DNA of 64,000 nt, taken from Balanoglossus misakiensis. Its lineage: Eukaryota; Animalia; Hemichordata. Location: NCBI GenBank assembly GCA_040954595.2, contig CM082576.2, positions 9,427,129 to 9,491,128 of the forward strand, written 5' to 3'. This document shows positions 15,201-39,688 of the stretch, one piece after another; positions within the stretch are counted from its first letter, which is position 1; every line of letters starts with the position of its first letter. The position numbers and the translations under genes were made by a program. The notes beneath the pieces are model-generated. The model was not told the origin of the DNA. It did no database searches and worked only from the letters and a program-made list of their open reading frames with translations.

Positions 15201-18200
15201 AACAAGTGACTTTGCATTCAATTACCTTCTCCTGTAAAGCCTCCCTCATCTCCATGATACCGGTTTTCTTGATGAATTCTGGCAGTTCAAATGGTGGCTT
15301 CTCAATACCTCTCTTGCCCTGCAGGTACTTCCTCTTGAAACACCAATGTCTGGGAACGGGGACTGTGTTTCTGGTTGCCTGTGGGGATTGAAAGAGGGGA
15401 CGTCACATTGAAAAGTCTGCTGAGTGGAGTCATCACAGATCTCACAGCGTGTATTATTCTTGATTTGCAGAAACATTTTTTTTTACATTTTGGACTGGAG
15501 ACTTTGCTATAGAGGCTGTAATCAGATACATGCATGTCATTCTTCAGTAGAATCCATCCGTATACTGTGTACTTCTACACAGACTGACCACAGCAAAGCT
15601 GACTATATTTACAACAACAAAGACAAACTTACTTTCAAATGTACAAGTAGTTTTGGATCCTGGGCTGTCACATCGTGCATCTCCACCACGTCCGGCCTGG
15701 TCACCAGCTGCTTCAACTCGGCCACGCTCAACCTGTTCAGTTTCCGAAGCTTCTTCTTGGAGATCTTTGGCCTGTCGTCATCCATGTTTTCGTCGTCCTG
15801 CGAGAATACGGGAAATCCAAGGTACAGCTATTATGCACAGTTTGCCGTGACATTGAATGCTCTCTTAGCATGCAACAACTCCCAACTAGTATACACTGTC
15901 ACTTTACCACACTCAACAGAACAATGACACTTTTGACTTACTGCATTGAACACTGAACTACCATACAAGACTGGATAACCAACTGGTATTTGTCACCGAG
16001 TACTTACAGACATGTCACTGTCACTCCTCTCCTTTTCCACCTCAGGTTTCTTCGTTGTCTTTTCTTTCAGTTCTTTCGTTTTTTCTTCTTTCTCAGGTTT
16101 GACAGTTTCCGCCAGCTGTATCCAGAGGGAAATAGTACAATGTAAGATGAGGTTGAATTGCTGAGCATAGTGGATATTTCAGTGATGACAATATGGCCAA
16201 GTTTCATGTTTTTGTCTTTGTATGGTATTTGCCCTTCACTTTAATTGGGGCCTTTTAGGTACTGTAGACCAGGAACAGTTCTCTTGGCAAATCTAAACCA
16301 TACCGTTTACGTGGAACCTGACACACGTCTACTTACCTTGAATGCTTCAAATATTTTGTGGAAATGCATGAAAGCCGGGTCTTTCAGTTCTGCAGTTAGA
16401 TCCTCCTGGACGTACTCCACCTCAACATCATCGTCATCATCATCTTCCCTCCCGGCGCCCGCCGCTTCTCGTCTTAACTGCTCCTCCCTCTGTCTTTCCT
16501 TCCTCTTCTTTTTCTTCTTCTTGCGCCGTTTGTTCTTGGACTGAAACACGCAAGTCAGAGAGTATCCTTAATATCCTTTGTAACGTGGACTTAACACTTC
16601 AAGAAAGATACAGACCCCCCCCCCCCCCATATCATGTTGTCACAGCTTTTGTGAAGGGGTCAGAGTGCAAAGGTTACAAAGTCACCCCCTCTCACCTCTT
16701 TAGATTCTGCTTCTGCCGGTGTCATCTCAACTGGCTCGTCGTCAACTGCGTCCAATTCTTCAACCTCAACATCTGGCACCACAGTTGCCTTGCGTTCCAC
16801 TTCTTGTAACACTGCGTCAAGATATTAAAGGCAAGGAAAACGATAAGAGAAGGTCCTACTTGATTTGCCTGTAAAACCCACTACACATGTACATACATGT
16901 AACACTGCATTCTCACCTTCATCCTCTGTTGTTCCAATCTGTTGTTTCCTCTCATCTTTGAATGCCAGTACTTTCTCTAGAGCCTGAGGTAATTTCACTG
17001 GTCTTTTGGGGGGCTCTTCCTCTCTGGCCGGTGGTGGAGGGGGAGGGACTCTAGGGGGAGGTCTTTCGGGTCTGATCCCCGGAGGAGGCTGTCCCATGTC
17101 TCTCATTTCTGGAGTTGGCAATAAGGGCCTGGATGGTTGCCTTTCGGGGGGTGGGGGAGGTGGGGGCGCCCGAGGTCCACCGGGTTGTTGAGGAGGTGGT
17201 GGACCAGACATTGCGGGTCCATGTGGTGGACCTGGTGGAGTTGGTAGCAGCGGCCTGCTGGGTGCGCTGGGAGTGGGCAACAGTGGCTCTGCAAAAAGAA
17301 CAGTATTACAAACATGAAAATCTGACTTTGAGTTTGATGTCCGTGTACATCAACTTAGGACTAACCGGTAAGCCTGGACAAAAATGAAAGTGTTTGATCC
17401 TGTTAAAAAGCTTGTTCATGAACCAGAAATCAGAACACATTTTCTGGCCAACAACAATTTTGTGTCTGAGCTGACTGCTCTCCACAAACTACAAACCAGG
17501 TGTAAAAAATCTGATATACCACGGGGAGAAAAGGGGATTTTATTATGTACAACAAACTGTATAATGCAGATTCTAGCTTACGTCTTGTTGGTGGGTGATG
17601 CTGTTGTTGTTGTTGGTGCTGTTTTTGCTTTTCTTGCATCATGATCATTTCCTGCTGTTGCCTGACTTTAGCATCTTCTTCTCTCTGTTTGATCAACAGA
17701 GCCATCTGTTGTTGCCGTAGCAACTCCTCCTCTTGTGCCTCTTCTTCCAGCATCTTCTGTTGTGCCATCTGTTGTTGCTGTAGAAGCTACACGTAGGACA
17801 AATGAACATCCGGTTATACAGGGAACGCCAAGCAAATTTGTCACAGAAACAGAGTGAAACTAGTGTAGTGACTTTAAGGTGGAATAATAAAGAAAGTCTG
17901 GTGTTTTTAATTAAGGGCGGTACCAAGGTAGATGCTACCTGGGTTCCCCCAGTCATTTTACCGGAGTTCCCCCCTGGGTGTATGATTTCATTCACAAATG
18001 TTCCTCAACCTCAGCAAGAATGCTGTGAAATGAAACTCATTACCTTCTGTTGCTCGGCCAGTTTCTGTTGTTCTATTAACTGCTGTTGCTGCATCACTTT
18101 CTGCCTCGTCTCTTCATCCAGCAGGGCTGCTGCAGCCTCTTGCTGTTGCCGTAGCTTCTCATCTTCGATCTGTTGCTGCTTCCTCTGGGCCAGCCTCTCT

Positions 18201-19078
18201 TTCTGCTGTTCGAGAATTCTCTTCTGCTCACTTTCAATGAGTTTCTGGGCTTCTTCTGACTGCAGGGCTTCCTCGTCATCTAGCTCCGACGGCCTGTTGG
18301 CGCTTTGCTCTTCCGCAACCTGGCTGGCATCAATGGAATGTCCTGTTTGAGGGAGAAAAATTATCAATGAGTGTAGATTCCACGCAGAAGGCTGAAGCCA
18401 TTATGAATAAGATCACTCACTCTGCCAAATGAAACAGACAAACACCAGTTCTAAACACGGTAGATTTGAGCAAAACTGATGTGATTACAATTTAATATTC
18501 TTTGAAACAAGATGGCACATTCAACCCACAAGTAAAACCTATGGTGAACATGTAATCATAACATACCATCCTGTTCTGGGAATGTTCAATTGTAATTGTG
18601 CCCGCAATGTAATGCAACATACCTGCGTCACCTTCCTCTTCCTGCTTTACATAATGTGACCGTAATCTCTCAATGAGGTCATTTTTGATACCTGTGATGG
18701 GAAGAAAATCCAACAATAGTGATGACTGGCATTTGGCTACATTGCATGTAAATGTGATATGGGTCGTCTGACATACATGTACACATGTACAAGTACTGGG
18801 AAGCCCTTAAATTAGGCTTAACTACTATTGTATCATACAGTAGCACAGTAGCACAATGCAATGCTATCGGCGGGCAATCGACCATCAAAACAATTGGCAT
18901 CGCATTTTCAATGTGCATGAGTCGACTGGAAGTGAAACAAATACCTTCATATGTTTGCCGAATACTGCCCCATTGGACCTTTTGTGCACTTACCTCCCAC
19001 TGGTAGTCCAAGAGCACTCAACTTCTCCCTAAGCTCTGCAACTTTTAGTTTCCTAAGTTCACTTATCGTCGGGATCAT
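12238..19078 (-). CDS. SF3B2: Splicing factor 3B subunit 2 (SAP145), about 19 exons
   Basis: Exon 1 (18994-19078) MIPTISELRKLKVAELREKLSALGLPVG is SAP-like. Later exons give Q/E-rich and Pro-rich regions, KMREKVRPKMGKIDIDYQKLHDAFFK, WQTKPKMTIHGDLYYEGKEFE, FGYHAGGWGKPPVDEAGKPLYGDVFG and GLITPSGITSVPAGMETPEMIELRK. The protein ends KKYKEFKF* (stop 12238-12240). Confidence 0.97.
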
Positions 19079-19436: not shown

Positions 19437-22400
19437 ATGTCGAAAGTCGCCAGAGCTCGAGTCGCATCAAAGATTGTGAAGGGGGCACAGCAGAAGAAAG
19501 TAATTCCGAGTAATGTTATAAAAACATACATAAAAGCAGGCCAGGCGACACCCGGTCCCCCTCTTGGGCCAGTTTTGGGACAGGTTAGTAACACATGTGC
19601 ATTGTTGAATAGATCATGTGGTGACGGCCACTTTGACCTTTACCCTTGGCTTGCCCGAGCAGTTTTCAGCATAGCGGCCAATACGCTTTAATTTTGCCAA
19701 AACAATGGAAGAACATTAACATAACAATAGCTTATCATTGCATGTATGCATGCATGACATCTGTTGATGTAGCTCTGCGTGGCAGGGCCGCCCTACTGTT
19801 GATGCACATTCCCTCTGTCATGACATGTAATAGCGGAACTGTGATTGTGGTGACCTTAAATGACATTAAACTATCACCTCAGCAATGGCAATGCTCGCGT
19901 TCCACTGTTACATGTGTACCATGGTATTTACATGTATGTATGTACGAAGTACATGTATGCGGTTCGACTGGTTTGTCTGTCTGTCTGTATGTATGTATGT
20001 ATGCGAGTATGTATGTATGTATGTATGTATGTACATGTATGTTTAATACATGTACATATACGTATGTGTGTTGTATACATGCATTTCATTGAGCAGTCAC
20101 CACCATAATACACCACCTCATCAGAGCTAGCTGCATCTCCACATATGTACATTGTACGTCATAACATATGTATCATGTACCTGGTTGTGACAGGGGGGGG
20201 GGGGGTTGCTGGGGAATTTCACTTAAATTGTGTGTTAAACCCTATCATGTGATGCATGGATACATGTATTGTAGATTGTAGGTGGACTTCGATGAATGGT
20301 TTTAAAACCACACCTCCATCAGTAGCCTATTTTCACTATTTGTAAAAAGACAACAGCAATGTTTTTATTGAGTACAAATCATGTATTCTTTACTGTCAAG
20401 TTATCTTGTACTGTTTTCTACAACAATGTGTTCATGAAAAATACATTGGCATTGTACAGTACATGTACTTGAAAAAAATATATTGTTGCTAGCTGTGTAA
20501 ATTGAGAGTATAACAGCACTGTAAATTGGCATGCACTTGTCAGGAATTACTGAGCGCCCTCTATGGCCAAATGAAGTGTTACTGAATTGTACAGAGGTGT
20601 CAATCAGGATTGTATATACAGTGTAGCACCCTCTGTGGCCACATTAGTAAAAGGTCATAAATTGCCAATGGATTTTTTCATGGCTGGAGGGTTCTTCATT
20701 TTAGTGCATATAAGTTAATGATTGATGTGAATTTTGAAAATGAGAAATGAACAGGTATAACAACAGTTTCTCATGTATCCAATTGCCATATTTGTCCAAA
20801 TATGTTACTTGTACATTGGATTTTGTAAGCCTGGACTACCACCACCTTGTAAATACATTACTTAACTGTTCTACTGCTGTTCACGAATATGAAAATGCAG
20901 AACTTGGTTAATATTTTTGAAATTTTTCACCTGATGAGGTATCCAGTTAGAAAAAAGTGCATAGTTTTTGTTAACATTAAGAGCCCTGTAACTTGGTTAT
21001 CTAATCTATATCCAGTCTTAGCTATGAATATGAAATATATTTTTATGCAAGCAGGCAAGGGAAGGCAACGTGTCAGTAATGACCGGTATATCTGTAAATG
21101 AATCTGGAAATCTCCAGACGCTTGTCAAATTGTGCAGCCCATTTTGTCGCTGTATTGTTCCATGGCATTTATATCAGTATGTGAGTTTTATGTAGTTACT
21201 GCAGTTAGTGTTTCTTGTTCAAATTCCTGAAACATGATGAATCACCCAGCATTTAGCCTATCAACACAACAGGTATAGTCAGTGTTGATATTGTGCAAAA
21301 CATGAAATCAAGTGGGGACAGTCCGCATATAAATCATTTATCAACAATAACAATGGCCATTACACATACACACTCACATACAGGGTTTGTTGACAAGCAG
21401 AGTACTGGGTATATTAGCATGCTGTATGGAGTAGAACAAGAAATTGCATTAAGCACACAGAACAAAAAAACTGAAAGTATAGCCAATAGTTACAGCTAAT
21501 GTCCCTTTAAATGCAACCTGTTACATCTTCAGGGTCACAGATTGGGTTCACCTTGCCACCATCTGTGTGTACCTCCATCTCATTGTGATTATTGTTTGTT
21601 GCGTGCATGCTCTCCCGCACGGTGCGTCGTCGCACTGCCGTGGTGGCCTGGCTCTGGAAGTAGCGCGAGGTGCGCTTTGTCCGCTTGCAGACGGGCTGGT
21701 GTTTCATCATTTCGCACTCGGAGAAGCGGTCCCCGCAGTGCTGGCACCTCTGCGGGCCCAGCTCGCTGAAGTAGACCACCAGGTAGCGGGCCCCGAGGAA
21801 GAGACCCACAAAGTTCTTCCCCAGCAGCACCACGTTGACGGCGCTCAAGTGTTGGAAGGCCAGCCAGTTGACGAGACGGATGACGATCCCGGCGAAGTTG
21901 ACCGTCAGGAAGCTGAAGAGGTGGTAGACGATGCTGTGGGGCACGGCGTGGTCCTCCCCGACGGGAACGCCGTAGCGGCAGTCGTGGAGGGCCAGAATGG
22001 GGACAGTCAGCAGGAGCAGCGAACAGTAGACGAAGACGAAGATCTCCATTCCCTTGGGTAGCTTCTGGTGCGCCGCCGCCGATTCTCCCCAGATGATGGT
22101 GAGCAGCTCCAGAATGTCGATCAGGTCGATGACCACCCCGGCCGTCTCCGAGTTCAGGCTGAGCCCTCTCTTGCAGAAGGGTTTGACGTTGTGGTGCATG
22201 CCGACCAGAACCACGTAGAGGGTGGGCACACAGGCGTACAGGGCCAAGCTCAGGCCGCCGGGCCCCAGGACGGGGTGATCCAGCGGCGTGTAGTAGTAGA
22301 TGCAGAAGAGCTTGGCTATGTGCAGCAGCATGAACAGTGCCCACGGCAGCATGGCCGTCCACAGCTCCGTTTGAACAACCTGGCGTTCGTACGGGGCTGG

Positions 22401-25400
22401 AGAGTCCAAAATCTTCGTGGCGTGCCAGGCAAAGTAGATCCACACGGCCAGGACCACAGCGTCGCCAATTATGAAATATCCGTAGTTCAAATTGTCCATC
22501 ATCAGGTATACGTCGAAGGTGGCCATCAGCACAATGACCAACACCACCGACGCGATGCAGTCAACAATTCTGAAAAGTCTTCCGTTCATCTTGACGTGCC
22601 GATGTAGCTCTCTGTCACTCAGTAGCTGTCCAATTCGTACAGATTGACCAGAACTTCTAAGGTGTTGAAGATGAGGACAAGCAACTATAGTGCCTGCAGG
22701 TGGACTGTGTCAACGACGGGCAAAGACAAAGAGCACGGAAAGAGAAAATGACCACAATGGCGGAACTGTGTAGATGATGTGAAGGTTCACGTCTTCCATA
22801 CAATAAATTACATGTGGTAATAATGATGTCATAAATCGCACCACTTCGGCTATAAAGTTTGATTAAATATCTGCAGTCCGCACTACTTATTTTCCCTACT
22901 AATGTGGATGTGGATTTTCAGTAAGAAAGATCCAAAATCAAGACTTGCAAATCTCAAAATTGTCCCCCGAGTACACTCCCACATGGGAGATAAGGAAAGT
23001 GACAATCATACTGCCACAGATTTCATACATCAACAGTTTAGATTTTGCTCTGCTGTTTGTCCTTGTGTATTTTGGTGTGTCTGGCATTTTGGGGGACAAA
23101 TTCCACAGAAAAATTACAGTGCAGACTACAGTAACATTACACAGTGACAGCCTGTTTTGCCGGCGCGGTTTACATGAAAGACAACTGGATAATGACAAAA
23201 GGGCAGACATTCATCACATTCAAGAAAGTGGGGGAAAAAATGTGTGCAGAAAAAGAGGAACAAAGTCGTGAAATGCCAAGAACCATTTATTTACATGTGT
23301 GTGTTAGTAATAGCTGATGGTGGTCTCTTCTTAAATACCAAGCACAGAATTTTCTGCTGCCTGCTTGACATGTTTGAAAATGAAGATATTAAATTATATA
23401 ATTGTCTAATTTAGACCATGATCGTCCTCAAAAAAGGGTAGAGTTTTGAAATGTCACTTACAATATATTGTTGTAGTGTGGAATCTAGTAAATATCAAAT
23501 GTTTTTTTTTGTAGAATTCCAATAAAAAAGTGTTAATGAGCCAATTAACGTTCATATGCTTATAATATCTTTTAGTATAAATCAACAAATATCTTGCAAA
23601 AATTTACCGTAAAAAACAAGAAATGAAATTGGAACAGTAACTATGGTCTTTTTGTGTAGTAGGCAATCCTAGCTGACTTGGATGCCTGATGTCATGCAAC
23701 AGGTTTGTTTAAATAAAAGTGCAACTAATATCTAGTAGCAGTACTTTATTTCACAATTGTCTTTTGACCGCAGACTCAAACTCTATATATATATATGCAC
23801 AATGGTATACATCTGAGTGCTTGGCAACAGGTTGTCAACGCGTGCAAACATATAGTACAGCCGGCCTACAGGTCATACTGTGTGACCCTGACCTATATTA
23901 TAATTATATCCTAGTATGCGTCATAGACAGAGCATGTAGCTTCAGTTATGAGCAAACATCAAATGATTGCATTTCTTTGCCTTGTTATGATGTTATTCAT
24001 GGAAGAAAGTTGTTATCAGCTGTACCTATTTGATTACAGGAAATTTAACCAAGTCATCAAAATAGTCATCATCATATAAGATGAACATTAAAATCTTCCA
24101 TATGCAGCATTACCAGTACATATACTGTTGTACCTATATATGAACTGCCATCTGTCACGTACATGTATTGTCCGTGCCAGGAGCGGTGTGCTTTATTTAG
24201 ACCTGTGTGACATTGAAAGGCCATGACCCCTCTTATTATCCTGTCTGTGAACGCTAGAGTGCACAGCTGCACAGCCCGCTTGTATGTGTCGGTCAAATGA
24301 ATAATGAATAAATCACACAAAATGCCGAGAACCATTTATCTACGCATGTGTGTTAGTGATAGCTGATGGTGGTCGCTTCTCAATTACCAAGAACAGACTT
24401 TTCTGCTGCCTGCTTGACATGACTGAAATTAGAGATAAACCATGATTGGTAAATATCAGATGTCTCTTGTAGAATTCCCGTGAAAACACCAAGTGTTAAT
24501 GAGCCAAGTAAAATTCAATACAGAGGTAGCCTTGTCTCACACACTGCCAATAGAATGAACCTTCTGCATGATGAAAGTAAATTATACATGATACCCGTTG
24601 CATTGTAACAATGTAAGGCTATAGAGATCAATGCAAAGAAAATTCCACAATATCTCCAGGTGGCTCAGTGTTTTCAAAAGAAAAAAACCCCACCCACGCT
24701 GTCTTATAACTAAAGATCCGCATCAAGTTGATTGATTGCTTTATAAAAAAATTGTATTTATAGATGCAAAGTTTGGTGAAACGCTGTCGATGTAAATAGG
24801 GGACTTGTGTGAAAAATCATTACTATATCATGATGTTTGATGTCAACTGGGACTCAACACAATACAAAAAAATTCAATATGAATGAGGAAGTCAAAGAAG
24901 GTCAGATCTTGCTATATAATATATTTATGGTCTATATACACAATAGTTACGTCTCATTGCTTGGCAACAGGTTTTTAGCGTGTGCAAACATCCAGTGCAG
25001 GTCAATATACTGTGCGACCATGACCTAAATTATACACTGGTATATGTATTAGACAGAGCATATGATATATAGCTTCAGTTTAATATCAGCAAATGTAAAA
25101 GTTAATTGCATTTTATTGGCTAGTTATGAAAGGAAGTTGCATATTTCGTGTAGTGCACAATCGAAATATACATTGTAATGTACCCGTTTTTGAAATTCCT
25201 TATAACATGTGAAAAGAAATATCGCCTAAAATATTCTATATAATCAGCTATGCATGGTGTGTGTGCTCAGAGTTGTTTGGTTGTAGTTGCTAGGTAACTT
25301 GGTATGACAGAATACAGTTCTGTAAATTTGTGAATTATTGTACTGACTGACATAGCACTTCTTTATGCGTTGTTGTCATAAAGCGGAAGCTTATGCAGGC

Positions 25401-28400
25401 TGATCATATACATTGTTTGTCCACATTCTGCATCATGACGTTTTCTTTAAATATATTGGTGATATTCTACTGAGAGCTGGCAACAATCCAATATACATGT
25501 ACATGGAGAAAGAAGTGTCCAATTTTAGTGGAAATTCTGTCTCTTACATGGATTGTGAATGCAAACAGTAGTCAAGAATAGTTATCAAACAGCAGAATTT
25601 TTCACCGGTAATTCAAACACTTGTAGTCTCCCCGTTGCATTTCCCCGAGGGTCAGATTGAATCAGAGGGTTGACATGCCTTCGTTGACATGTCCACTGAC
25701 AGTGTCGACTTCTTCCACCGCCAGCTCGGGGCTGGGCGAAACCCTGGACACCTTTTCCTCCCTGCTTTTTGTCGACTTCCCCCCGAAGTACTCGGCCATT
25801 CCGCCGTACGTGGTTTCCGACTGTTTGCATATCTCCTGGTGCACCCCCAGATCGCACTCCGAGAACCGCACCCCGCAACTGAAGCACTTCTTGGGGCCCA
25901 TGGGGCTCAAGTACGTGATGAAATACCTGATGTCCTGGAAGATGTTGACGAAGTTCTTAGCCAGCAGGACCATGGTGATCAGCGACGTGTAGTCGAAGAC
26001 CAGCCAGCTGGCGATTCGAATGGACATGTTGGCAACATCCACAAAGACGAAGCTGATGAGAGGGTAGACGAGGCTGTAGGGAACGGTTTGTGTGTCGCCC
26101 GTCGGGGTCTCGTACCGCAGGTCGTGGATTGCCAGTATGGGCAGGAAGATGAGCATCACCGACGTGAAGGTCAGTATGAATATGTCCATCGCCAAGGGGA
26201 TCTCGTGCCGGTTTTGCTCCACCGTCCACAGCATGGTCAAGATGTCCAGAATGTCGATGAGGTTGACGGCCACGCCGGAGGTCTCCGATCGCAGGTTGGC
26301 CCCCCTCTGACAGAAGGGCTTGACGTTGTGGTGGATGCCCACCAGCATGACGAAGAGCACGGGCACGAAGAAGTAGAGGGTCAGGCTGACGCCGGAGGCC
26401 CCCAGCAGATTGTCCATGGCCTCCGGGTTGTGGTAGATCAGGGCCACCTTGGCCACCTGGAGCGCCATGAAGGCCCCCCACTGCACCATGGCGGTCCAGA
26501 GAGCCGTCTGCACCACCGCCTGCTCGTAGGGCCCGGGGGTCCCCAGCGTCCGCATGGCCATCACGATGAACAAGATCCAGATTGCCAAAACGGCAACGTC
26601 GGCTATGATCAAGTACCCGTAGTTCAGATTGTAGATCATCAAGTAGGCGTCCAGAATGGCCATCATCAAGCATATGAAGACGGACGACAGGACGGAATCG
26701 ACTAGACGGAAAACGGACGGCATTGTGTCAGTCACGACTGCGTTTTATCTTCTGGCCCAAAACAAAAAAATGCCAGCGATAACTGAGAACTCTCCTGACA
26801 CAGCCAGCCAGCAGTGTTTCAGTTGCAGAATGTTATTGTCACCTGGGTTTATCAGCAAAACGGTCACCAGTTTGGGATGGGTTCATTAAATATTAAACTA
26901 AGCTTGACAATACAAGGATGATATAGTTTATCTGACAGACATACCGATGTGTTTTAATTCACCTGTGGGATTGAGTGATTTATGTGTGCGCTGTGTTGAT
27001 TGTTGGCATACGGATCTGATTCAATGCCAGTACTTATAAGAAATATCACAGGACATGATAAGTTGCATGCAAATTACAAATGTATTATTCACCATCATAT
27101 CATTGGATAATTCACATTTCAAAGTTAAACATCATGTCAACTGAGTTTTATAAACTTGACTCATACATGCGTATAAAAAAATACAGGAATGATTGAAGTT
27201 TTGAGAAAATGCCCACATTAACCTCCTGTGTGTTCCTTCTTGTCAAGGATTTTGAAAAAAAACTTCAACTGTATATTGTTGTATTTCCACTCTGTAGGAC
27301 TAAGTTTATATTTTCTATAACGTGTCCATAGAGACAGTTGTTTTTCCATAAGAAGCACATGAATTCATGTCTCTCTGTTTCAAGTTCCTTTAACGTCTTT
27401 GCAATGTGAAGGAGTAAACTTAAAAAGACCTAATAAATGTATTGGTAAATAAAGTTTCCCTACATAATCTTGTAGGAGTTGTCAAACCAAGATGAGTCTT
27501 GTAAAATTGAAATTGTTGCATTGTCAAAAGTTTATATTTGTCATATATGTACAAGCAAGAATAAATGTAAATTCGACAAAATCTCGTGTTCACCCATGCA
27601 CACTACATATCAGATTACTGTGTTACTCAAACAAACAAAAAAATTATCTAATTATCAACTGTACCTATTTGATTACAGGATATTAAACCAAGTGTATCAT
27701 AAATGTTGATGAAATATTCATAATCACATCATATAAACATTAAAAGCTTCCATATGCAGCATTACTCAACCTTCATATGAACCAGTGTCTGTCTGATGTT
27801 TAAAGCCAAAAGCCGTGTGCTTTGTTTGGACCTCTGTGGCATTGAAAGGACATGACCCCTGTTATTGATCTGTCTGCACAGCCTCACAGCCCACTTGTAT
27901 GTGTCAGTCAAATTCATGAATAATGACTTGGGTACTAGAAAACTATATTGTCTGCCAGGTCTGCTGGGAGTTGTAAAATACATGTATGGTTCATGCATGT
28001 ACCACCATCCTAGACTTGGAAGAATTTATTCCCAAAACTGCAAACTAACACAATTCACTCTTTACTGATATACAGTTAAGTATCATAGCCAGTTTAAAAA
28101 AATGATCCAATTCTTACATGTTTCACTTGTTCAACTTCTGGATGGTTCTGTAATTTGTTTGGTGGTTGCTGCTAGGTGACGTCAACTTCAAAAGTAAGGG
28201 CTGGCCTGTTTTGATACTTTGCGCCCAAAGTGAGTGGGATGGTGGGAGGCGGACGTCGGTCTGGGAAATAGACAGCAACAGAGAGAGAGGGGGAGAAAGA
28301 GAGAGAGATTCCAGCATACATATATAGAGGCTGAGCATTGATTCATTCAGGGTGCTGACAATCTGCTCCCAAACAAGTCGTTCAAAGTGGAAAGAAGGGG

Positions 28401-31400
28401 TGCGACTTATAATACCGCCGCGACTTATAAAATGACTTTGACGGGGTACCTGTCAGTCATTTTTTTTTCATTATGAAGATAATGTCTTGCTCTTTTGTGT
28501 ATTGGGATGTGTCAAAAGTCGAAATATTATTCAGATGGCCTCAGTATTATTCGTTCATACGTATCCCTCGTTGAAATGTGGGTTGGATGCGCGGTTGGAT
28601 TCCTCCGCCCAACGCTCGGTTGCTTTGTGGCGACTTCGTACGGCTTGGGTGTTTACGCTCTTGAAGTAAGTGGATGCCGGGTTCGGGCACTTGCAGAGGC
28701 TGCTGTGTTGTTCCATCTCGCACTCGGAATATCGAGCCTTGCAAGACGGACACTTGACCGGTCCCAGTTTGCTGAAGTAGACCACTATGTAGCGGATCCC
28801 GACGAAGATGTTGACGACGTTCTTTCCGATGAGGACGCTGTTGAAATCTATTATCTCAGTGCCGACGGTCGAGGAACTCTTAAACACCAGCCTGTTGACG
28901 AGACGGATGGCGAAGCCGGCAGCGTTGACGGCGACCAGGCTGACTGCGGGATAGACGGCGCTGAAAGGGGTGGCGGTGTCCTCGTCGTCGTTGGGCGTCG
29001 AGTAGCGGCTGTCGTGCAGCGCCAGAAGCGGCAGCCCGGTCAGCACGATGGTGGCGTAGACGAGGATGGCGATCTCCATGATCTGGTGCATCCTCTGGCC
29101 CGTTTCCAACCCGACCCAGATCATGGTCAAGATGTCAATGATGTCGATCAGGTCCACCACCACCTCCACCGTCTCCGGCCGGAGATGGAGTCCGCGCTGG
29201 CAGAAGGGCTTCACGTTGTGGTGCATGCCCACCATGGTCAGGTAGACGGTGGGCAGACAGATGTAGAAGGTCAGGTTCAGCCCGTCCGGCCCCAGCACAT
29301 CGCCGGGGGTCAAGACGGTCAGGTAGTAGATGCACACCAGTTTGCCGACACTGAGGAGCACCAGGGTGACCCACTGCAGCATGGCGGTCCACAGCTTGGT
29401 CTGAATGACCGCTTGCTCAAACCTGGCCGGATGGTGCAGCAGCCTGCTGGCGTACACGACAACACCGATCCATAGACCCAGAACGAGGACATCGCCAATG
29501 ATGAAGAAACCATAATACAAGTCGTCTCTTATCAGGTACAGATCTAGTACAACCATCAGCGCAATTACAAAAGTAATCGAGCCTATGCTGTCCAGAACTC
29601 TGAACACTCTACTTGCGCCAACCATTTTGGACGGTGGAATATTCACACCAACCTCTGTACGTGCAGATAATTATTGGTCTGTTGTCATGGGAACTTCTTT
29701 TGACGAACAACAATGCACCAATTCACTTCTGAGGTTGTCGCGGCAGGGGCAACTACCTGTAGTGAATTGCCCAAAAGGCACCAAGATTATGCACAGTCCC
29801 TTTTCGTTAGATTGATTAGATTGTGTTGCGTCGTCAAGTTGCGACGTATTGGGGGTAACCCAAATACATGTAAGAGGCAGGGAATGGTGGGAACAATGGC
29901 ATTACAAATTTGAGTCACGTAACAGACGTGGACCATAAAAACATATTGTTGGGCGTTGCCAATAGTAAAAAGTAAACAAACAAGTGCCTAGACTTTTTAT
30001 GCGTTGTTGAAGGGTAGGTAAGAGTACACATCACCTTTCACGCAAGTCTTTGTTCAGTGATTTGGGCCAAAAGCAATAACACAATAAATGCTGCAGACTG
30101 TACGTGCCACATGGACAGATTTTCAGAAAAAAATGATAGTCCTCCAAACCTTTCACCTCTTACCTTATATTACAGTGTGTGGGAAATCTTTTTTAAAAAC
30201 AAAGAAGATTCCAGGGTGTTCACCATCTTGTTTGCACTAAAATCACTGTTTTAACATGTCTCAATAGAGTTAACATGTAGATTGGCAGCCTTTTTTAATT
30301 TCAAATTTGGGGAAATTTTTCTCTGTCATGCAAAAATTTGCACATTGACCCCTGATATTTATTCTCAATTTTAAGAGGGGTTTATAATCTGAAGTTGCTG
30401 TCAGCAAAATATATGAACAAAGGGTTAAGGCTCTTAGGCGTATATTGCCCTTAGTGCAGCGCCACGCCAGTTCTCTCGCAGCTTGCTGATAATGCAACAC
30501 TGAGAAAAGCTGCTGCCATCACTGCTGATGTAAACCATCCATTGCATTCCTGCTTTGAAATGTTACCCTCATGTCCTAGATATCGTTGCCTCAGGTGTTT
30601 TAAGCTATTAGGTTCAGCAAGAGCTTTAAGGCAAATGGCCATCAGAAAACTTAATACCTGATATGTGTATGTTTTTGTCCTTACGTGATTTTGTTGTGAA
30701 AGATGCAGCCATTTAGTGTATATTGGTTTGTTTTCTGTGTAGAACTTTTTAATACAATTGTTGTCATAGCAACAGTAACACTGTCTCATCCGAAGTAAAT
30801 TGTAAATAAGAAATTGTATGACGATACATGTAGATACCATTAAAGGGACAAAGTCTCTCTCTCTCGCTGCGCTTTTTCCATGAATTATGTTTGATATAAG
30901 ACACCATTTATGTCATTCTACTTGTGGATATATATAATTGAAACAATGTTCGACCACACACAACTTCCATCCCATTTGTACATGTAGGATATGAGAGCAA
31001 AATTCTTGCCAAAATGAATAAATGGTAGAGACCGATTATTCATTTGGCGAGTTTCTCACTCGCGTTCATCCAATGCCTGGTGTCAGTCAAGCCCGGAGCA
31101 ATATTGCTTTGAGAGTTTGTCTTTTGCTACAATTCCGATTTGTAGAGGTACATCATAGTGTACATACGTGTATATGTATGTTTGTCAGTTTGTTTTGTGA
31201 CATGACTTACATTTACACAGCTGTACAACTGCTACTCGTCGTACATGTATGTCCAGAGCCAACGAAACAGGTGCTCAAGAATCTTATTTCAAACTAGCTG
31301 AAGGAAAAAGTGCTGTGGCATACATGTAATGCATGTCAAATGTTTTCAGGATTTGGTCAGTTTGATACATTGGAATGGATTGTGTTCTCAATATCACATG

Positions 31401-34400
31401 GTCTGTAATGATGCCGTATTGTCCACTCTTCTCTTCCTGTATACAAACTGAATACTCAATCATGCCAACATTTTGCCTCTCAGATTGAGAAATATAACCT
31501 CTTTCTTGTGATAGGAGAGCGAAAGAGACTGGACGGTAAGTGCATGATATGTTTAGATACATTGTATGCAAGCCTGGCTAGTCACAGAGAGTGTTATTTT
31601 ACAGTTTGTATTGAATGTAGGTGTCTTTAATAATTCAAACTTTTGTGTCATCATCGCATTTATACAATGTGTACACTTTGGATGCTTTCCACATCAGCCA
31701 GCTGCATGTCACTAACGCTTTCCCGTTCTCGTAGTCCAGAGTTCAACACCTGAAGGTGTGTGCCACTTGGAAAGACCTTACTCTGCCGGGCTGTTCTCCT
31801 CTTGGTGGACTTTCCAGAAAAGTATTCAGTCAGTTGCCCGTAGGTGGACTTGCCCCGGTTACACATGGCCTGATGGTGCGCCAGGTCGCATTCGGCAAAA
31901 CGCACGCCGCACGCGACGCACTTCTGCGGGCCCGTGCCGCTGTAGTACATGACAAAGTATCGGATGTCCAGGAAGATTCCGATGAAGTTCTTGCCCAGCA
32001 GGACGATGGTGATGCTCGTCAGGTGGTCGTAGAGCAGCCAGTTCACCAGTCGGATGGTGACGTTGGCGATGTCCACGAAGACGAAGCTGAGCCACGGGTA
32101 GACGATGCTGTACGGGATGGTGTGGGTGTCGCCGACGGGGGTTTCGTACCGGGAGTCGTGCAGCGCCAGGATGGGGAGAAATATCAAGAGCACGGAAGTG
32201 TAGCTGAAGAGGAAGTACTCCATCCAGTCCGGCAGACTCTCCGGGTCCGCGGCCGTCTCGGGCGACCACAGCATGGTCAAGATGTCGAGAATATCGATGA
32301 GATCGATGGCGACGCCGGAAATGTCCGATCGGAGGTTGACCCCCCTCTGACAGAAGGGCTTGATGTTGTGGTGCATGCCCACCAGCATGACGTAGAGGCC
32401 GGGGATGAAAACGTAGAGAGTCAGACTCACCCCGCTCGGTCCGAGAAGCTGCTCCAGCGAAGTCAGGTAGTAGATCACAGCAACTTTGGCAATCTGCACA
32501 GCCATGAAGGAACCCCACTGGAGCATGGCTGTCCACAGCTCTGTCTGCACTATGCCGAGCTCGTGGGCTTCAGGTCGCTCTAGCGTCTTGGAGGCGAGCA
32601 CGGCGAAGACAATCCAGACAGTCAGGACGACGGCATCGCCGATGATGAAGTATCCGTAGTGGAGGTTGGCTATCATCAAGTAGGCGTTGAGTACGCACAT
32701 GGTCAGGCACACGAAGATGACTGATATGACAGAGTCCACAACGCGAAAGGCCCGAGTCATATTGGTCCGATGCTCAGTGCACAGTCAAGCAGCAGATACT
32801 GAACTACCGTTGAGCCGATGATATAATAAATACCTGAAAGTAGTTGTTCCCCAATGCTATCGTATCTGGTCAGGTTTCATTTACCATGATCTCAAATTGA
32901 TTATACATGTATTCAGTTATGGGTCTTGAGGGTCCAAATTGCTTGGAAAATGGCCCACACATGCATGTACTTCTGCCTGGGACTTGGGTAACTTTCTTAG
33001 TTAGGCGGTGGCTGTTCTGATTTCAGGGCATCTCAAGCAGTGTGATATATGTCGTATTATGTGTATGGTTTAAACATTAATCATATTATACACCTTGCAA
33101 TTGTTGGGCTGGCACAAGATGATGCATTTGATCTTGTTTTCAATACTAGCCGTCGCAAACACGGCACTCGACATGTTGTAAGGTTACTCAAACAGTCACT
33201 ACATGTATTTATGTAAAGAAAAGTCTCTGTTTCTTATCAGACACAATCTCCGCCGAGAGGTATGAGATTAAGACGGCAACATGCCCATGGCAACAGTGCC
33301 AAACTTTTCAAAACACCTTCTTGAGTTACATGTAACCATCTCCATAAATGTGGTAATTTACAACGTAACTTGATATACTACATGTATGTCTCGACGTTAG
33401 CTGTCATAGCATGGCCATGAAATAGTAAGGTTTCCAACATCCAAAAATTAGCCAAAGATTAAAGTAGTTGTTGTTGTTTTTTTTTGTTGTTGCATAAATG
33501 TGGTGGTTTTTTTTGCTAATTTGCATAAAATCAAAATGGCCGCCGAGGTGACACAATATTCACCCTTTTGTAAATTTAGACAATATTTGAAATTTTGTTC
33601 TGGTTGACTGTTCCAGACTTTAAACTCAAAATGATTAACTCATACCAACAAAATGTCAAGATGTAGAGGTCACGCAGAGGTCATGAAAGTGGCCTGTTCC
33701 CACATCCATTTGGAACTGGAACTTTGTATTAATTCTATTAAAGTTGGATACAGATACACATACATATACTAGAAAATATCAGCCATCTACAGATTGGTTT
33801 TAAAGTGTACCATTATAGTGATATGAAAATATACAACATTAAAAATGTAAAAAATGTTTTCCCATTGCAGAAAGGCGTAGCCATTGGTCAGTTCTGCAAA
33901 GATTTCAATGAAAGAACAAAGGACGTACAGGAAGGCATTCCCCTACCAACAAAAATAACTGTCAAGGTAAGAAATCAAAGGACACCACATTTTTGTAGTG
34001 TGCAATTACGGTCACCTTATTTGGCTAGTAATAACCGTTTCCTGCGTTGCATCCTGTTTGGAATGTCAATATTTGGCAACAAACACAACTCTTATCAAGG
34101 TCAGGTTGTGTCATTCACACACTGTATTAAAGTCAGAGTTGAGATGAATATACCTATAGGTATACTAGTCCCAGGTCAGTGTAAATATGCCTGTCAGTGT
34201 GTGTCTAGACATTCGGACTTCAGCATACGCGTACCTGCAAGAAAATGTGACCACGACCCTTGCTTATGATCACCAAAGACAAACTAAAACAAATGATTTT
34301 GTTTTGCCAGCAACATTTCAGCCCAGGCAACTAAAAGAAATTCTGGCAAAAAAACCCTCTGTGTTCAAAGGTTTGAATGAGATCACATTTCGACACGGTG

Positions 34401-35549
34401 TCTGATTCAGCGCATAGCCACTCAGCCATGACTTGTCAGTTGGCAAATGCTTGGGTATTCAGATTTAGATGAGAATGCTGTCCTTTACACGTGCTTACAG
34501 TTTGTCTCAAAGTGAACAAATACAGTACCGGTAATTGAATTTTTATTGCAAGAGAAACACATTTTCTACTTCAACGGGGAAGCTTCATAGCAAGACTGTT
34601 TCTTTCGGGTTCACATTTGTTTTGAATTCGCCCATAAGGGGAATATAGTCAGTGTACTGACTACAAGTATTGTAACTCTGGGATGAAGGTCATTCGGATA
34701 ATTGTGTATTCTTGTTTACAGTCTGATAGAAGTTACGCAATCAAGATGAGTAAACCCCCTGTGTCGTACTACTTGAAAGCCGCTGCTGGGATATCAAGGG
34801 CAGCCAACAATCCAGGTATGTAACTGTGAAGGTCTTGTAAATAGTGTTGTGATTTGGTTTTTATCATCGGCAAGATTTCAAAAAGGCGTGGCTCTACTGT
34901 GCAGTTGGAAAATTTTCATTACGTCTCTACCCTCTTAATTTTTTAACCAATTATACCAAAGTCTGGTGGAATTGTGGAAATCGTTGATTTGAATAAAGAT
35001 TAAGTCCACAGATTAGGCCCTGTTTTTGGGATGACACCATGAAACCAAATTTTGCTTGAAAATGACAAATTGGACATTAATGTCATGTCAAAAACTGGCT
35101 CCACTTCAGTTGCCCATGCTGATCAGCTCTGATCTGTACTGTACATGTACCAACACTAGGATTGGGGTTTTTATTATGCTGTGGTTGGTAAGGTACCGTG
35201 AAATACTTCCATTCAGTCAGTTAGTCACTCACTCACTCACTCGTAAACACATTTCACTGATTTAAACCGGATTCTCTCATATACAGGTAAAGAAGTTGTT
35301 GGAAAGGTTAGTTTGAAACATGTATATGAAATTGCCGCCATCAAAAGTGAAGACGAGGTGTGGGAAGACGAACCCTTGGAAAATATCTGCAAGTCCATCA
35401 TAGGTTCGGCGCGTTCAATGGGCATCGAAGTGGTGTGTGAACTAGATGTGGATGAATACAGACAATTCCTTGTTGAACTTCAAGCGAGAAAAGATCAGGA
35501 GAAACTTGAGAAAGAAATGTCGGCAAAAGCAGCTTTTGGAAAGAAGTGA
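19437..35549 (+). CDS. MRPL11: Mitochondrial ribosomal protein uL11m; exons 19437-19583, 33871-33966, 34722-34815, 35287-35549
   Basis: The exons give [18 protein letters not shown] | [32 protein letters not shown] | [23 protein letters not shown] | [12 protein letters not shown]...[20 protein letters not shown] phases are consistent. Intron 1 spans 19584-33870. Confidence 0.96.
19931..20082. repeat. (TATG)n / (TCTG)n simple repeat
   Basis: Runs of gtatgtatgt and gtctgtctgt. Confidence 0.9.
21507..22589 (-). CDS. TMEM121/CECR6-family multipass membrane protein with C-terminal C2HC zinc-finger motif (paralog 1, A type), nested in MRPL11 intron 1
   Basis: 360-aa uninterrupted ORF with 7-8 hydrophobic helices. 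Motifs [38 protein letters not shown] and GKN match my recollection of TMEM121 (DAYL, VGD, VPGLFLLLV, DLLDLLD, LLVLPCVAL, GKN). CQHC-x11-H-x3-C lies at 21687-21746. Confidence 0.85.
   Translation of the reverse strand: MNGRLFRIVDCIASVVLVIVLMATFDVYLMMDNLNYGYFIIGDAVVLAVWIYFAWHATKILDSPAPYERQVVQTELWTAMLPWALFMLLHIAKLFCIYYYTPLDHPVLGPGGLSLALYACVPTLYVVLVGMHHNVKPFCKRGLSLNSETAGVVIDLIDILELLTIIWGESAAAHQKLPKGMEIFVFVYCSLLLLTVPILALHDCRYGVPVGEDHAVPHSIVYHLFSFLTVNFAGIVIRLVNWLAFQHLSAVNVVLLGKNFVGLFLGARYLVVYFSELGPQRCQHCGDRFSECEMMKHQPVCKRTKRTSRYFQSQATTAVRRRTVRESMHATNNNHNEMEVHTDGGKVNPICDPEDVTGCI
23270..25140. repeat. Diverged direct duplication with a period of about 1.05-1.15 kb between paralogs 1 and 2
   Basis: About 23272-23375 (gaaccatttat...gctgatggtggt...ttctgctgcctgcttgacatg) recurs at about 24322-24423. 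About 23785-23975 (gcttggcaacagg...gtgcaaacat...gacagagcat) recurs at about 24932-25110. Confidence 0.8.
25662..26723 (-). CDS. TMEM121-family protein with C2HC zinc-finger motif (paralog 2, B type)
   Basis: The first ATG is at 26723 (MPSVFRLV); the ORF-track start is a GTG. Same motif set as paralog 1. CFSC-x11-H-x3-C lies at 25827-25886. Confidence 0.85.
   Translation of the reverse strand: MPSVFRLVDSVLSSVFICLMMAILDAYLMIYNLNYGYLIIADVAVLAIWILFIVMAMRTLGTPGPYEQAVVQTALWTAMVQWGAFMALQVAKVALIYHNPEAMDNLLGASGVSLTLYFFVPVLFVMLVGIHHNVKPFCQRGANLRSETSGVAVNLIDILDILTMLWTVEQNRHEIPLAMDIFILTFTSVMLIFLPILAIHDLRYETPTGDTQTVPYSLVYPLISFVFVDVANMSIRIASWLVFDYTSLITMVLLAKNFVNIFQDIRYFITYLSPMGPKKCFSCGVRFSECDLGVHQEICKQSETTYGGMAEYFGGKSTKSREEKVSRVSPSPELAVEEVDTVSGHVNEGMSTL
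27655..27925. repeat. Diverged copy of the 24015-24310 segment
   Basis: tgtacctatttgattacagga...cttccatatgcagcattac...ttgaaagg.catgacccc...cacagcc.cttgtatgtgtc occurs at both places. Confidence 0.8.
28398..28448. mobile_element. Possible terminus relic of a pogo/Tigger-type MITE
   Basis: gggtgcgacttata...gcgacttata...acggggta resembles the ends of Tigger-derived MITEs. The other end was not found. Confidence 0.3.
28555..29625 (-). CDS. TMEM121-family protein with C2HC zinc-finger motif (paralog 3, A type)
   Basis: The first ATG is at 29625 ([11 protein letters not shown]). Same motifs as the other paralogs. CPSC-x11-H-x3-C lies at 28693-28752. Confidence 0.85.
   Translation of the reverse strand: MVGASRVFRVLDSIGSITFVIALMVVLDLYLIRDDLYYGFFIIGDVLVLGLWIGVVVYASRLLHHPARFEQAVIQTKLWTAMLQWVTLVLLSVGKLVCIYYLTVLTPGDVLGPDGLNLTFYICLPTVYLTMVGMHHNVKPFCQRGLHLRPETVEVVVDLIDIIDILTMIWVGLETGQRMHQIMEIAILVYATIVLTGLPLLALHDSRYSTPNDDEDTATPFSAVYPAVSLVAVNAAGFAIRLVNRLVFKSSSTVGTEIIDFNSVLIGKNVVNIFVGIRYIVVYFSKLGPVKCPSCKARYSECEMEQHSSLCKCPNPASTYFKSVNTQAVRSRHKATERWAEESNRASNPHFNEGYV
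30470..30830 (+). mobile_element. Degenerate 3' end of a non-LTR retrotransposon (Rex1/Babar-like ORF C-terminus)
   Basis: Frameshifted translation [33 protein letters not shown]...RFSKSF...AIRKLN* matches the recalled HPLH..F..LPSG.RYR...R...SF...AIR.LN tail. An AT-rich 3' UTR-like stretch follows. Confidence 0.7.
31015..31072. repeat. Short dispersed repeat, second copy at about 44178-44228
   Basis: gaataaatggtagagaccgattattcatttggcgagttt versus gaataaatggtacagaccgatttattcattttggcgagttt. Confidence 0.75.
31660..32760 (-). CDS. TMEM121-family protein with C2HC zinc-finger motif (paralog 4, B type)
   Basis: 366-aa ORF from ATG 32760. [12 protein letters not shown] resembles recalled TMEM121 LPLWAEGLTFFY. 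CVAC-x11-H-x3-C lies at 31861-31920. Confidence 0.85.
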   Translation of the reverse strand: MTRAFRVVDSVISVIFVCLTMCVLNAYLMIANLHYGYFIIGDAVVLTVWIVFAVLASKTLERPEAHELGIVQTELWTAMLQWGSFMAVQIAKVAVIYYLTSLEQLLGPSGVSLTLYVFIPGLYVMLVGMHHNIKPFCQRGVNLRSDISGVAIDLIDILDILTMLWSPETAADPESLPDWMEYFLFSYTSVLLIFLPILALHDSRYETPVGDTHTIPYSIVYPWLSFVFVDIANVTIRLVNWLLYDHLTSITIVLLGKNFIGIFLDIRYFVMYYSGTGPQKCVACGVRFAECDLAHHQAMCNRGKSTYGQLTEYFSGKSTKRRTARQSKVFPSGTHLQVLNSGLRERESVSDMQLADVESIQSVHIV

Positions 35550-36090: not shown

Positions 36091-36232
36091 AAGATAGCTG
36101 CCTTCGACAACAGAACCATGTTCGTAAAAACGTAGGTGCAGTATTTCAGCAAACTATTGGCCAATGTGTTCAGTACAGTTTTTGCTATTGGTTCGTTATG
36201 AAATGTGATGCAGGTACTGGCCATTTAGATAC

Positions 36233-36302
36233 ACCAATCAGGGGCCCTGTAAAGTAATGAGAGCTATCGTAGTTAGTAGTATTTACAGGGCCCCTGATTG
36301 GT
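36233..36302. repeat. Perfect 21-bp inverted repeat with a 28-nt spacer
   Basis: accaatcaggggccctgtaaa (36233-36253) and tttacagggcccctgattggt (36282-36302). Confidence 0.95.
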
Positions 36303-37304
36303 CCATTTAAACGATGGCCATTGACTGAATCGCCATCATCACCAACCACACGAAGTTCAAATGTGGTTGCCTCTCTTACTACCATTACCATGCCGCCATG
36401 ACGACTGTAGCTCGATCTGTGGCAGCCTCAAACGTCTAATGCAATGTTACGAGAATCTTTGATCGTATGGACATTGTTTACGTATTTCAGTCGATTTTCC
36501 AAGGAGTACTGCCCGAGTACACGGGTTAAAACTCCGGCATGGCAACGGATTTTGACCTTCGCTCACTGCTGTTGTGCGAGGTCTCATCACAAGGTGAATT
36601 AGGCGTTCTTTTCGGGGAAACAAATGAATAAATAAATAAACACACAAAGAAAGAAACAACAACCACCGTCATGATAAACAACGCGGTGTCTTGAATAGCC
36701 TCCCGCTCGCGCGATCGAGCAGCTGATACAGGATATGGCTTGTGTCATCACCAGCGGGTAGTACTCCTTGGAAAATTGGCTAAAACACGTTAACAAACCA
36801 GTGTTATTTTTTCACGAAAGGAGTTTTGGGACCAGAAATAACCAGAGTTCAGGCTTGTATAGGTCGTTTTATTGAATTACGCTCATTTTGTTTTCTGTCG
36901 CCGGTCAAATGATCCTACTACACCAGTCGTGTCGTTACAACTGCACGATTAGAAAGCGAGTTGACCCGCAGCTGTCCGTGAGGAGTAATCAGCGCCCCCA
37001 CCCCCCTCAACGCTGCGTACCACAGCTAGGCGACCGTATGACGTTAGACGATCCCTTTTACAGTTATTCACAACATCGACAAACAACAGCAAGGAATGCC
37101 CCATTGTTTTTAAGAAGAATACTTATCATCATCATCATCATTTCATCGACAACCAACTAACAAACAACCAAACAATACGATTTCATTTTCTGTGACCCTG
37201 TGGTTTTAAATTTAAATGACACGTGATCCAGATACCTGGCGCGTCCCGCCACGTCCACGTCCTTGACAACAGATCTGGCTGAATATTCGTGACAGTTGTT
37301 GAAG

Positions 37305-39520: not shown

Positions 39521-39613
39521 ATTAAGGGGACAATTTGACCCATCGATCGCTTTTAAACGAGGTATCTTGTATACGGTTAAGAGTTGACTAGTGATCAGCC
39601 CCCAAATTGAAGG

Positions 39614-39688
39614 TAGCCTAGTATCTAGCTGTGTTTTGTCCGCTTTCTTTGGAAGAAAAGCGGACAAAATACGGCTAGATTCTAGGCT
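39614..39688. mobile_element. Short palindromic MITE-like element
   Basis: agcctagtatctagctgtgttttgtccgcttt and aaagcggacaaaatacggctagattctaggct form imperfect inverted arms of about 32 bp. Confidence 0.65.

What the first reader, a model, noticed from the sequence alone, without database searches (positions are those of the whole stretch)
21507..32760. Four antisense TMEM121-family genes nested in MRPL11 intron 1
Seen: the first intron of a compact housekeeping gene is 14.3 kb and holds four intact ORFs of about 355-365 aa on the opposite strand. They are clearly paralogous but well diverged, GC-rich at third codon positions and free of disablements. Known: vertebrates have only TMEM121 and TMEM121B/CECR6, both poorly characterised. 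Inference: a lineage-specific expansion of an orphan multipass family with conserved intramembrane charged residues (D in helices 1 and 2, the DLIDIL[DE] helix, K, R, GKN), as expected for a channel, transporter or sensor. This is the best candidate for an undescribed system in the window.
Basis: partly seen in the sequence, partly recalled or inferred. Interest (0 to 1): 0.85.

Follow-up and report, generated by a model that had tools for sequence, protein, structure and literature searches.

The report
Zinc-finger TMEM121 cluster inside MRPL11 intron
Four intact, long-diverged copies of a poorly understood membrane-protein gene (TMEM121 family) lie backwards inside the first intron of a mitochondrial ribosome gene of what is likely an acorn worm; they are predicted to form eight-helix dimers that likely move or sense a small charged solute, and they join a vertebrate-type core to a predicted zinc finger not seen in the vertebrate proteins examined, while the nesting itself is a common arrangement.

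Summary
Observation confirmed. Four minus-strand single-exon ORFs (353-366 aa, 42-60% identical) pass the Pfam CECR6_TMEM121 cut-off. They lie in a 14,287-nt GT-AG intron 1 of the window's only MRPL11, which is 85% identical to Ptychodera flava's. They are under purifying selection (omega 0.03-0.10 by ML; upper bound 0.5).

New here: (1) all four end in a predicted C2HC zinc finger, shared with sponge, amphioxus and metagenome relatives but with none of 20 chordate-type rows; (2) trees (100/99), an AU test and a one-residue indel put them next to chordate TMEM121, not P. flava's annotated TMEM121B-like gene; (3) a relic fifth repeat unit has lost its ORF; (4) the model has eight long helices, no clear solved-fold match, a predicted homodimer and five acidic plus three basic conserved helix residues.

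Best reading: old local tandem expansion of a likely solute carrier or channel; the MRPL11 intron is a landing site. Expression and splicing are untested (no RNA run listed), and lineage specificity is unproven. The scan's index showed no earlier TMEM121 finding on other DNA.

The parts
19437..19583 (+). MRPL11 (uL11m) coding exon 1, ends at GT donor
19584..33870 (+). MRPL11 intron 1, 14,287 nt, GT-AG; non-coding parts CpG-depleted (o/e 0.34-0.54) like a transcribed gene body
   Evidence: splice inferred, not observed
21507..22589 (-). TMEM121-family paralog A, 360 aa, single coding exon; C2HC finger at 21687-21746
23271..24307 (-). Relic fifth repeat unit: copy of B's upstream element joined to B's 3' flank, lacking about 2.5 kb that includes the whole ORF
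   Evidence: four collinear matches of 69-86% to 27926-27652, 25129-24933, 24517-24449 and 24437-24320
25662..26723 (-). TMEM121-family paralog B, 353 aa; C2HC finger at 25827-25886
27652..27926 (-). Non-coding element upstream of B, copied at 24013-24307
28555..29625 (-). TMEM121-family paralog C, 356 aa; C2HC finger at 28693-28752
31660..32760 (-). TMEM121-family paralog D, 366 aa; modelled with eight long helices (residues 3-273) and a beta-beta-alpha finger; C2HC finger at 31861-31920
33871..33966 (+). MRPL11 exon 2
34722..34815 (+). MRPL11 exon 3
35287..35549 (+). MRPL11 coding exon 4 to stop

Best explanation
Four intact TMEM121-family genes under purifying selection, likely made by old local tandem duplication, lie antisense in MRPL11 intron 1 of what is likely a ptychoderid acorn worm, and each likely encodes an eight-helix, predicted homodimeric membrane protein that likely carries or gates a small charged solute through a polar site in each subunit. 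Shown: ORFs, family, selection, exon positions, the relic fifth unit, the conserved charge set and the C2HC pattern. Predicted: eight membrane helices with both ends in the cytosol, the finger fold, the dimer. Inferred: an intronless ancestor settled in the intron and was copied in place; the B/D and A/C pairing fits a two-gene block duplicated once, and a later copy of the B unit lost its ORF. Also inferred: five acidic, three basic and two Asn residues (D25, D42, K92, D153, D156, D159, N/D230, R237, K257, N258 in D numbering) line an ion- or proton-coupled site; the cytosolic finger binds a protein partner for trafficking or regulation; the variable outer loops tune each copy; MRPL11 is only a tolerant host. 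Gene history about 0.85; carrier or channel function about 0.45.
For: Family. Selection: omega 0.031-0.101 under three codon models on 299 codons; lnL -3387.8 with free omega against -3622.5 with omega 1 at the best of four fixed kappas; NG86 0.36-0.49, an upper bound because GC3 bias compresses dS. Duplication: clade of four 83/94, A+C 81/87; collinear relic. Intronless coding is no sign of a fresh retrocopy: 17 of 18 metagenome loci hold a relative as one full ORF with the finger, and the 18th is cut by its contig end. Model: pLDDT 84, eight long helices; basic residues favour N-in, C-in. Charges: R237 invariant and D156, K257, N258 at 90% or more in 81 sequences; acid minus base is +2 in 34 of the 55 rows filled at all ten sites (26 of 81 rows left out for gaps), and all four paralogs keep five acids although B and D each lack one family Asp and carry D230. 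Dimer: score 0.57, best of 3 controls 0.00, runs agree in at least 80% of contacts, pLDDT 76; the mark was reached by 21 of 30 microbial pairs and 0 of 23 single chains, by 17 of 29 eukaryotic pairs (animals 7 of 16) and 0 of 30 single chains. The listed interface (helices 4, 5, 8) omits D153, D156, R237, K257 and N258. Loops: predicted outer loops 18-30% identical among the four, cytosolic loops 56-74%.
Against: No transport activity of any family member turned up in my searches. The functional report I read describes human TMEM121 as six-transmembrane with an ERK-docking domain and as a MAPK suppressor (PMC9366253, passages). I had no model coordinates, so clustering of the charged residues in space is inferred, not measured. 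Family-wide covariation with D230 is weak: p 0.03 for position 153, 0.36 for position 25, uncorrected among four tests and not corrected for kinship. In the dimer calibration only 1 of 7 eukaryotic pairs without an older solved relative passed, and the counts are small. Variable outer loops may reflect relaxed constraint alone. No close orthologue appears among the 82 hits although P. flava proteins are in the collection, which vertical descent from the deuterostome ancestor must explain by losses or missed annotation.
Confidence: 0.45

Rival explanations
1. Same gene history, but the proteins are signalling receptors or scaffolds: the buried charges hold a ligand or the fold, and the cytosolic loops and finger pass a signal, as reported for ERK suppression by human TMEM121.
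For: PMC9366253 (passages) cites an ERK D-domain and MAPK suppression. The cytosolic face is the most conserved part among the four and the outer loops vary most. The finger model's top matches include RAD18 UBZ and TRAF fingers.
Against: A five-acid, three-base set kept from sponge to fish is more than a scaffold usually needs (inference). GPCR matches are loose, rmsd about 7 A at Z 8-9. I did not test for an ERK-docking motif in the four.
Confidence: 0.25
2. The proteins are intramembrane enzymes or lipid scramblases, with the invariant Asp, Arg, Lys and Asn binding a lipid head group or a metal.
For: Invariant D/R/K/N inside helices. Best single structural match is an iron-binding four-helix bundle, 6n63_A, Z 11.3, rmsd 3.5, 132 residues aligned to model 140-274. 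Weak Tmem26 hits in 7 of 81 members, best E 0.0012.
Against: No His is conserved within the membrane-spanning parts across the family. Z under about 13 for helical bundles may be only a common arrangement (note).
Confidence: 0.18
3. The cluster came from outside (horizontal transfer or a mobile element) rather than by descent, which would explain why annotated acorn-worm proteomes show no close copy.
For: No relative above about 32% identity; sister to chordate TMEM121 rather than to P. flava's gene; GC3 above other genes in the window; intronless.
Against: No relative in viral contigs (44 pattern matches, none confirmed). None of the four spacer ORFs scanned matches any Pfam family. Intronless coding is family-wide. 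Near-saturated synonymous sites leave time for GC3 to have adjusted. No donor is known.
Confidence: 0.07
4. The nesting is an assembly or model artefact, or the ORFs are silent pseudogenes.
For: No RNA evidence could be obtained.
Against: Single-copy exons in order with a clean frame. Exon 1 lies head-to-head with an SF3B2-like gene at a CpG-rich stretch (o/e 0.87); CpG depletion runs from exon 1 to exon 4 outside the ORFs and ends after it. Omega is far below 1.
Confidence: 0.05

Closest known systems
Vertebrate TMEM121 (Hole) and TMEM121B/CECR6, Pfam PF14997
   Same: Pfam domain above cut-off; nearest clade in both trees; shared one-residue-longer helix 6 (4 of 4 and 20 of 20, against 3 of 55 others); same buried charge set.
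   Different: About 21-30% identity; the four carry a C2HC finger found in 0 of 20 chordate-type rows; four tandem copies nested in MRPL11; eight modelled helices against six reported for human TMEM121 (PMC9366253, passages).
Invertebrate 'TMEM121B-like' proteins (Branchiostoma XP_035674210.1 cluster, P. flava XP_070558296.1, Sycon P050244, Owenia, Tubulanus)
   Same: PF14997, the His-His loop after helix 4, intronless coding in metagenome loci, and in several the same C-terminal finger.
   Different: Separate clade; grouping the four with the P. flava gene is rejected, p-AU 0.0017; no second copy in any of 18 loci, though most are short.
TMEM26 (PF09772)
   Same: Weak hits in 7 of 81 family members, best E 0.0012; a possible remote relative.
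   Different: None of the four window proteins hits it; homology not established here.
C2HC beta-beta-alpha zinc fingers (zf-C2HC_2, RAD18 UBZ4, TRAF-type)
   Same: C-x2-C-x11-H-x3-C spacing; modelled beta-beta-alpha; top structural matches are such fingers.
   Different: Scores are low (Z 3.7 at best); the acidic helix residue that UBZ4 uses for ubiquitin (recalled) is not conserved in the four.
Antisense nested genes in long introns (Drosophila nested pairs; LRRTM in alpha-catenin)
   Same: Small intron-poor genes on the opposite strand in a 5' intron of a broadly expressed host (PMC5174743, PMC11694760 passages; PMC3933685 abstract start).
   Different: The host is otherwise compact; the nested set is a four-member tandem family making up about 30% of the intron.

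Membership tests
CECR6/TMEM121 (PF14997) | HMM score above the curated cut-off over most of the model | tested here: met
   4 of 4, 88-104 bits against 25, model positions 3-191 of 194
CECR6/TMEM121 (PF14997) | Family-invariant residues D156, P196, R237, K257, N258 | tested here: met
   present in 4 of 4
Chordate TMEM121/TMEM121B orthology group | Groups with chordate proteins, not with invertebrate TMEM121B-like | tested here: met
   99 SH-aLRT, 100/99, AU p 0.0017, shared indel; root not inferred, long stems
Chordate TMEM121/TMEM121B orthology group | Conserved synteny with chordate loci | not testable with these tools
   no animal genomes available
Vertebrate TMEM121 as described | ERK D-domain and proline-rich C-terminus | not tested
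   described in PMC9366253; tails of the four are not proline-rich on inspection; no motif test run
C2HC zinc finger | C-x2-C-x11-H-x3-C ligands | tested here: met
   invariant in 4 of 4
C2HC zinc finger | Pfam zf-C2HC_2 match and beta-beta-alpha fold | tested here: inconclusive
   no Pfam hit for the window tails (B's piece was out of frame); 2 of 81 relatives hit, best E 3e-4; model pLDDT 72.5, Z up to 3.7
Known transporter, channel or GPCR fold | Structural match over the whole membrane domain | tested here: inconclusive
   Foldseek best E 0.42; VIA best Z 11.3 over one half only; GPCR rows rmsd about 7 A
Secondary transporters with internal repeats | Sequence repeat between halves | tested here: inconclusive
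   hhalign probability 0.3%, E 0.21; helices 3-4 fell on 7-8
Nested gene pair | Host transcript splices across the internal genes and these are transcribed | not testable with these tools
   no RNA holder listed; genomic anatomy fits
TMEM26 (PF09772) | HMM match above cut-off | tested here: not met
   0 of 4 window proteins; only weak hits in relatives

The most novel reading that the evidence does not exclude
TMEM121 proteins are an unrecognised family of dimeric eight-helix ion or solute carriers with a fold not yet solved. These four are the missing link between zinc-finger-bearing invertebrate members and fingerless vertebrate TMEM121, and they mix as homo- and heterodimers with different outer loops and shifted acidic residues to give a small combinatorial sensing or transport set.
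Probability: 0.2. Interest if true: 0.68.

Novelty: new variant of a known kind. Interest (0 to 1): 0.38.

Why it matters
Human TMEM121 and TMEM121B have no biochemical function that my searches found. This locus offers four natural variants with a fixed charge set, a confident eight-helix model and a dimer prediction, which name the residues to mutate. If the tree holds, the vertebrate-type gene dates to the deuterostome ancestor and once carried a zinc finger. The nesting and tandem copying are ordinary; the value lies in the family biology, not in a new genomic system.

Tried and rejected
No whole genome is held, so copy number elsewhere in this genome is unknown. No RNA holder listed: no evidence either way. 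Word-indexed protein searches found nothing with D (2801 candidates) and only a query member with alignment A3. None of the four exact sequences is in the collection. No relative of the four in metagenome contigs (106 pattern matches) or viral contigs (44). PDB sequence searches gave no membrane-domain relative (best E 0.53; 1.1). No clear fold match in PDB or BFVD; XK-related scramblases (a recalled lead) were not among the 50 rows listed, which does not exclude them. The ESM Atlas gave only the PF14997 family, and nothing when it was skipped. The internal-repeat test was inconclusive. Long plus-strand and off-frame ORFs over the genes (e.g. 25689-26705) are read as shadows of high GC3 and were not scanned. 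A shared upstream leader or 5' UTR intron: weak acceptor-like sites before A and B only, TATA-like sites for A and B only; unresolved. One Pfam query (B tail) was out of frame and is disregarded. Rows dropped from trees: 13 of 82 hits by length; the careful tree and AU test used 26 of 82 chosen by hand; the 69-row tree is the quick one. Names were looked up for 26 of 82 hits, and 12 clusters carried an organism name. Literature searches found no paper on invertebrate TMEM121, its finger or its fold (listings only); two supplements of PMC11618098 had no hit. Subscription papers and unseen supplements could hold such work.
Full report
Observation. Four ATG-to-stop ORFs lie on the minus strand at 21507-22589 (A), 25662-26723 (B), 28555-29625 (C) and 31660-32760 (D), 353-366 aa. 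Each matches Pfam CECR6_TMEM121 far above cut-off. tblastn finds no further coding copy in the window. They are 42-60% identical. Four MRPL11 exons flank them and join through GT-AG sites into an open 199-aa frame; intron 1 is 14,287 nt. The frame is 85%, 78% and 69% identical to uL11m of Ptychodera flava, Glandiceps talaboti and Saccoglossus kowalevskii, and each exon occurs once. The window is therefore likely from a ptychoderid acorn worm. Exon 1 faces an SF3B2-like gene head-to-head. CpG o/e is 0.87 there, 0.34-0.55 in all non-coding stretches from exon 1 to exon 4, and about 1.0 just after the gene. This fits one methylated transcription unit across the intron (inference from invertebrate gene-body methylation, recalled). 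No RNA run was listed, so splicing and expression are untested.

Are they genes? Identity by codon position is highest at the second, and four-fold sites are at or moderately above chance (0.41-0.58 observed, 0.33-0.42 expected). ML omega is 0.03-0.10 depending on the model, and omega 1 fits 235 log units worse. Counting methods give 0.36-0.49 as an upper bound. A neutral ORF of this length rarely stays open past 0.2 substitutions per site (8 of 2000). GC3 is high (0.78-0.86) but other coding stretches of the window reach 0.70.

History. The four form a clade (83/94), with A+C at 81/87 and B/D the closest pair. A and C also share a four-residue gap after the finger. This fits a two-gene block copied once, with moderate support. 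Between A and B, 23271-24307 repeats B's upstream element and B's 3' flank in order, at 69-86% identity, with about 2.5 kb missing between them that includes the whole ORF. I read it as a fifth unit that lost its gene, so the array has gained and lost copies. Intronless coding is shared with relatives: 17 of 18 metagenome loci carry a full single ORF, the 18th being cut by its contig end; none shows a second copy or an L11 neighbour, though most loci are short.

Relatives. HMMER over 1.84 billion representatives gave 82 hits, the best at 118 bits. Of 26 looked up, 12 clusters had organism names, spanning a sponge, an annelid, a nemertean, a cuttlefish, amphioxus, P. flava, Ciona, hagfish, lamprey and fishes. 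Both trees separate the four plus the chordate-type proteins from all others (99 on 69 rows; 100/99 on 30 rows). Holding them with P. flava's TMEM121B-like protein is rejected (p-AU 0.0017; the group was chosen after I had seen the tree). A helix-6 spacing of 16 residues is shared by 4 of 4 window and 20 of 20 chordate-type rows, and by only 3 of 55 others. Because the sponge protein lies among the others, the four are likely co-orthologues of chordate TMEM121 and TMEM121B; the root was not inferred and both stems are long. Against a simple story, no close orthologue shows up although P. flava proteins are in the collection. That needs missed annotation, several losses or, less likely, transfer.

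Protein anatomy. AlphaFold2 on an 81-sequence alignment gives pLDDT 84 and pTM 0.81, with eight long helices over residues 3-273, a beta-beta-alpha unit at about 279-300 and a disordered tail. Basic residues sit at the N-terminus, loops 2-3, 4-5, 6-7 and the C-terminus, so both ends are predicted cytosolic. The small unit is C-x2-C-x11-H-x3-C in all four. A like pattern is in 15 of 82 hits and 17 of 18 loci, and in none of the 20 chordate-type rows. Folded alone it matches zinc fingers weakly (RAD18 UBZ Z 3.5, rmsd 4.4, 38 aligned; TRAF4 Z 3.0). Ten polar helix positions are kept from sponge to fish. All four paralogs hold five acids and three bases there, although B lacks the Asp at 153 and D the Asp at 25, and both carry Asp at 230; family-wide covariation is weak. 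A homodimer of D(1-305) passed: 0.57 against a best control of 0.00, runs agreeing in at least 80% of contacts, pLDDT 76, with the calibration limits given under Best explanation. Its interface uses helices 4, 5 and 8 and part of the finger, and includes D159 but not D153, D156, R237, K257 or N258. The fold searches are told under Tried and rejected and Membership tests.

Mechanism. I commit to a dimeric carrier or channel for a small charged solute, one polar site per subunit, regulated through the cytosolic finger (about 0.45). This rests on conserved buried charges, helix number and the dimer model; no transport activity is shown. Receptor or scaffold (0.25) has the only published support: human TMEM121 is described as an ERK-docking MAPK suppressor (PMC9366253, passages; the primary papers were seen only in its reference list). 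Enzyme or scramblase is 0.18.

Nesting. [quoted passage not shown] Mammalian nested genes favour 5' introns of broadly expressed hosts and are more tissue-specific (PMC11694760, passages). The arrangement here fits that pattern, and I found no sign of a functional tie to MRPL11.

Verdict. Real, functional-looking genes of a known orphan family in a known kind of arrangement. What is new is the combination of chordate-type core and zinc finger, the four-copy array with a lost fifth unit, and a testable structural hypothesis. My searches found none of this in print, within a library that lacks most subscription papers. PMC4729200 was read in passages for context only. New variant of a known kind; interest 0.38.

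Noticed in passing
window about 14281-19017, minus strand: SF3B2-like gene (SAP, DUF382 and PSP matches) head-to-head with MRPL11; as I recall, human SF3B2 and MRPL11 both lie on 11q13, so this may be old linkage.
   Followed up: partly
window 37305-38780, plus strand: Single-exon 491-aa family-2 glycosyltransferase with an N-terminal membrane anchor (PF00535 E 1e-11); resembles B4GALNT1/2 by recall; CpG o/e 1.0.
   Followed up: partly
window 44771-45130, minus strand: RRP36 exon (PF06102 above cut-off).
   Followed up: no
window 60743-61228, minus strand: Weak MMPL and sterol-sensing matches, likely an exon of a Patched/Dispatched-type gene.
   Followed up: no
window 30838-31061 and 44179-44374: Dispersed repeat (74-91% identical pieces) with one copy between ORFs C and D.
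   Followed up: no
window 36189-36348, 39612-39691, 42791-42904; 39112-39515: Three palindromic elements (MITE-like) and a tandem repeat of about 200 nt.
   Followed up: no
ORF D residues 130-137 and 290-291 (window about 32350-32373 and 31888-31893): His-His, a Cys in the loop after helix 4 and an extra Glu-Cys in the finger are invariant in the four; the two Cys fall in the predicted dimer interface. A possible second metal site.
   Followed up: no
alignment A2: Weak Tmem26 matches in 7 of 81 TMEM121-family proteins hint that the two orphan families are related.
   Followed up: partly
P0012 cluster: Some fish TMEM121-family entries are labelled 'Transmembrane protein 265' in UniRef, probably a naming error.
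   Followed up: no
window 19584-33870: The motif TACATGTA is three to four times denser in intron 1 (18 copies) than in the flanks.
   Followed up: no
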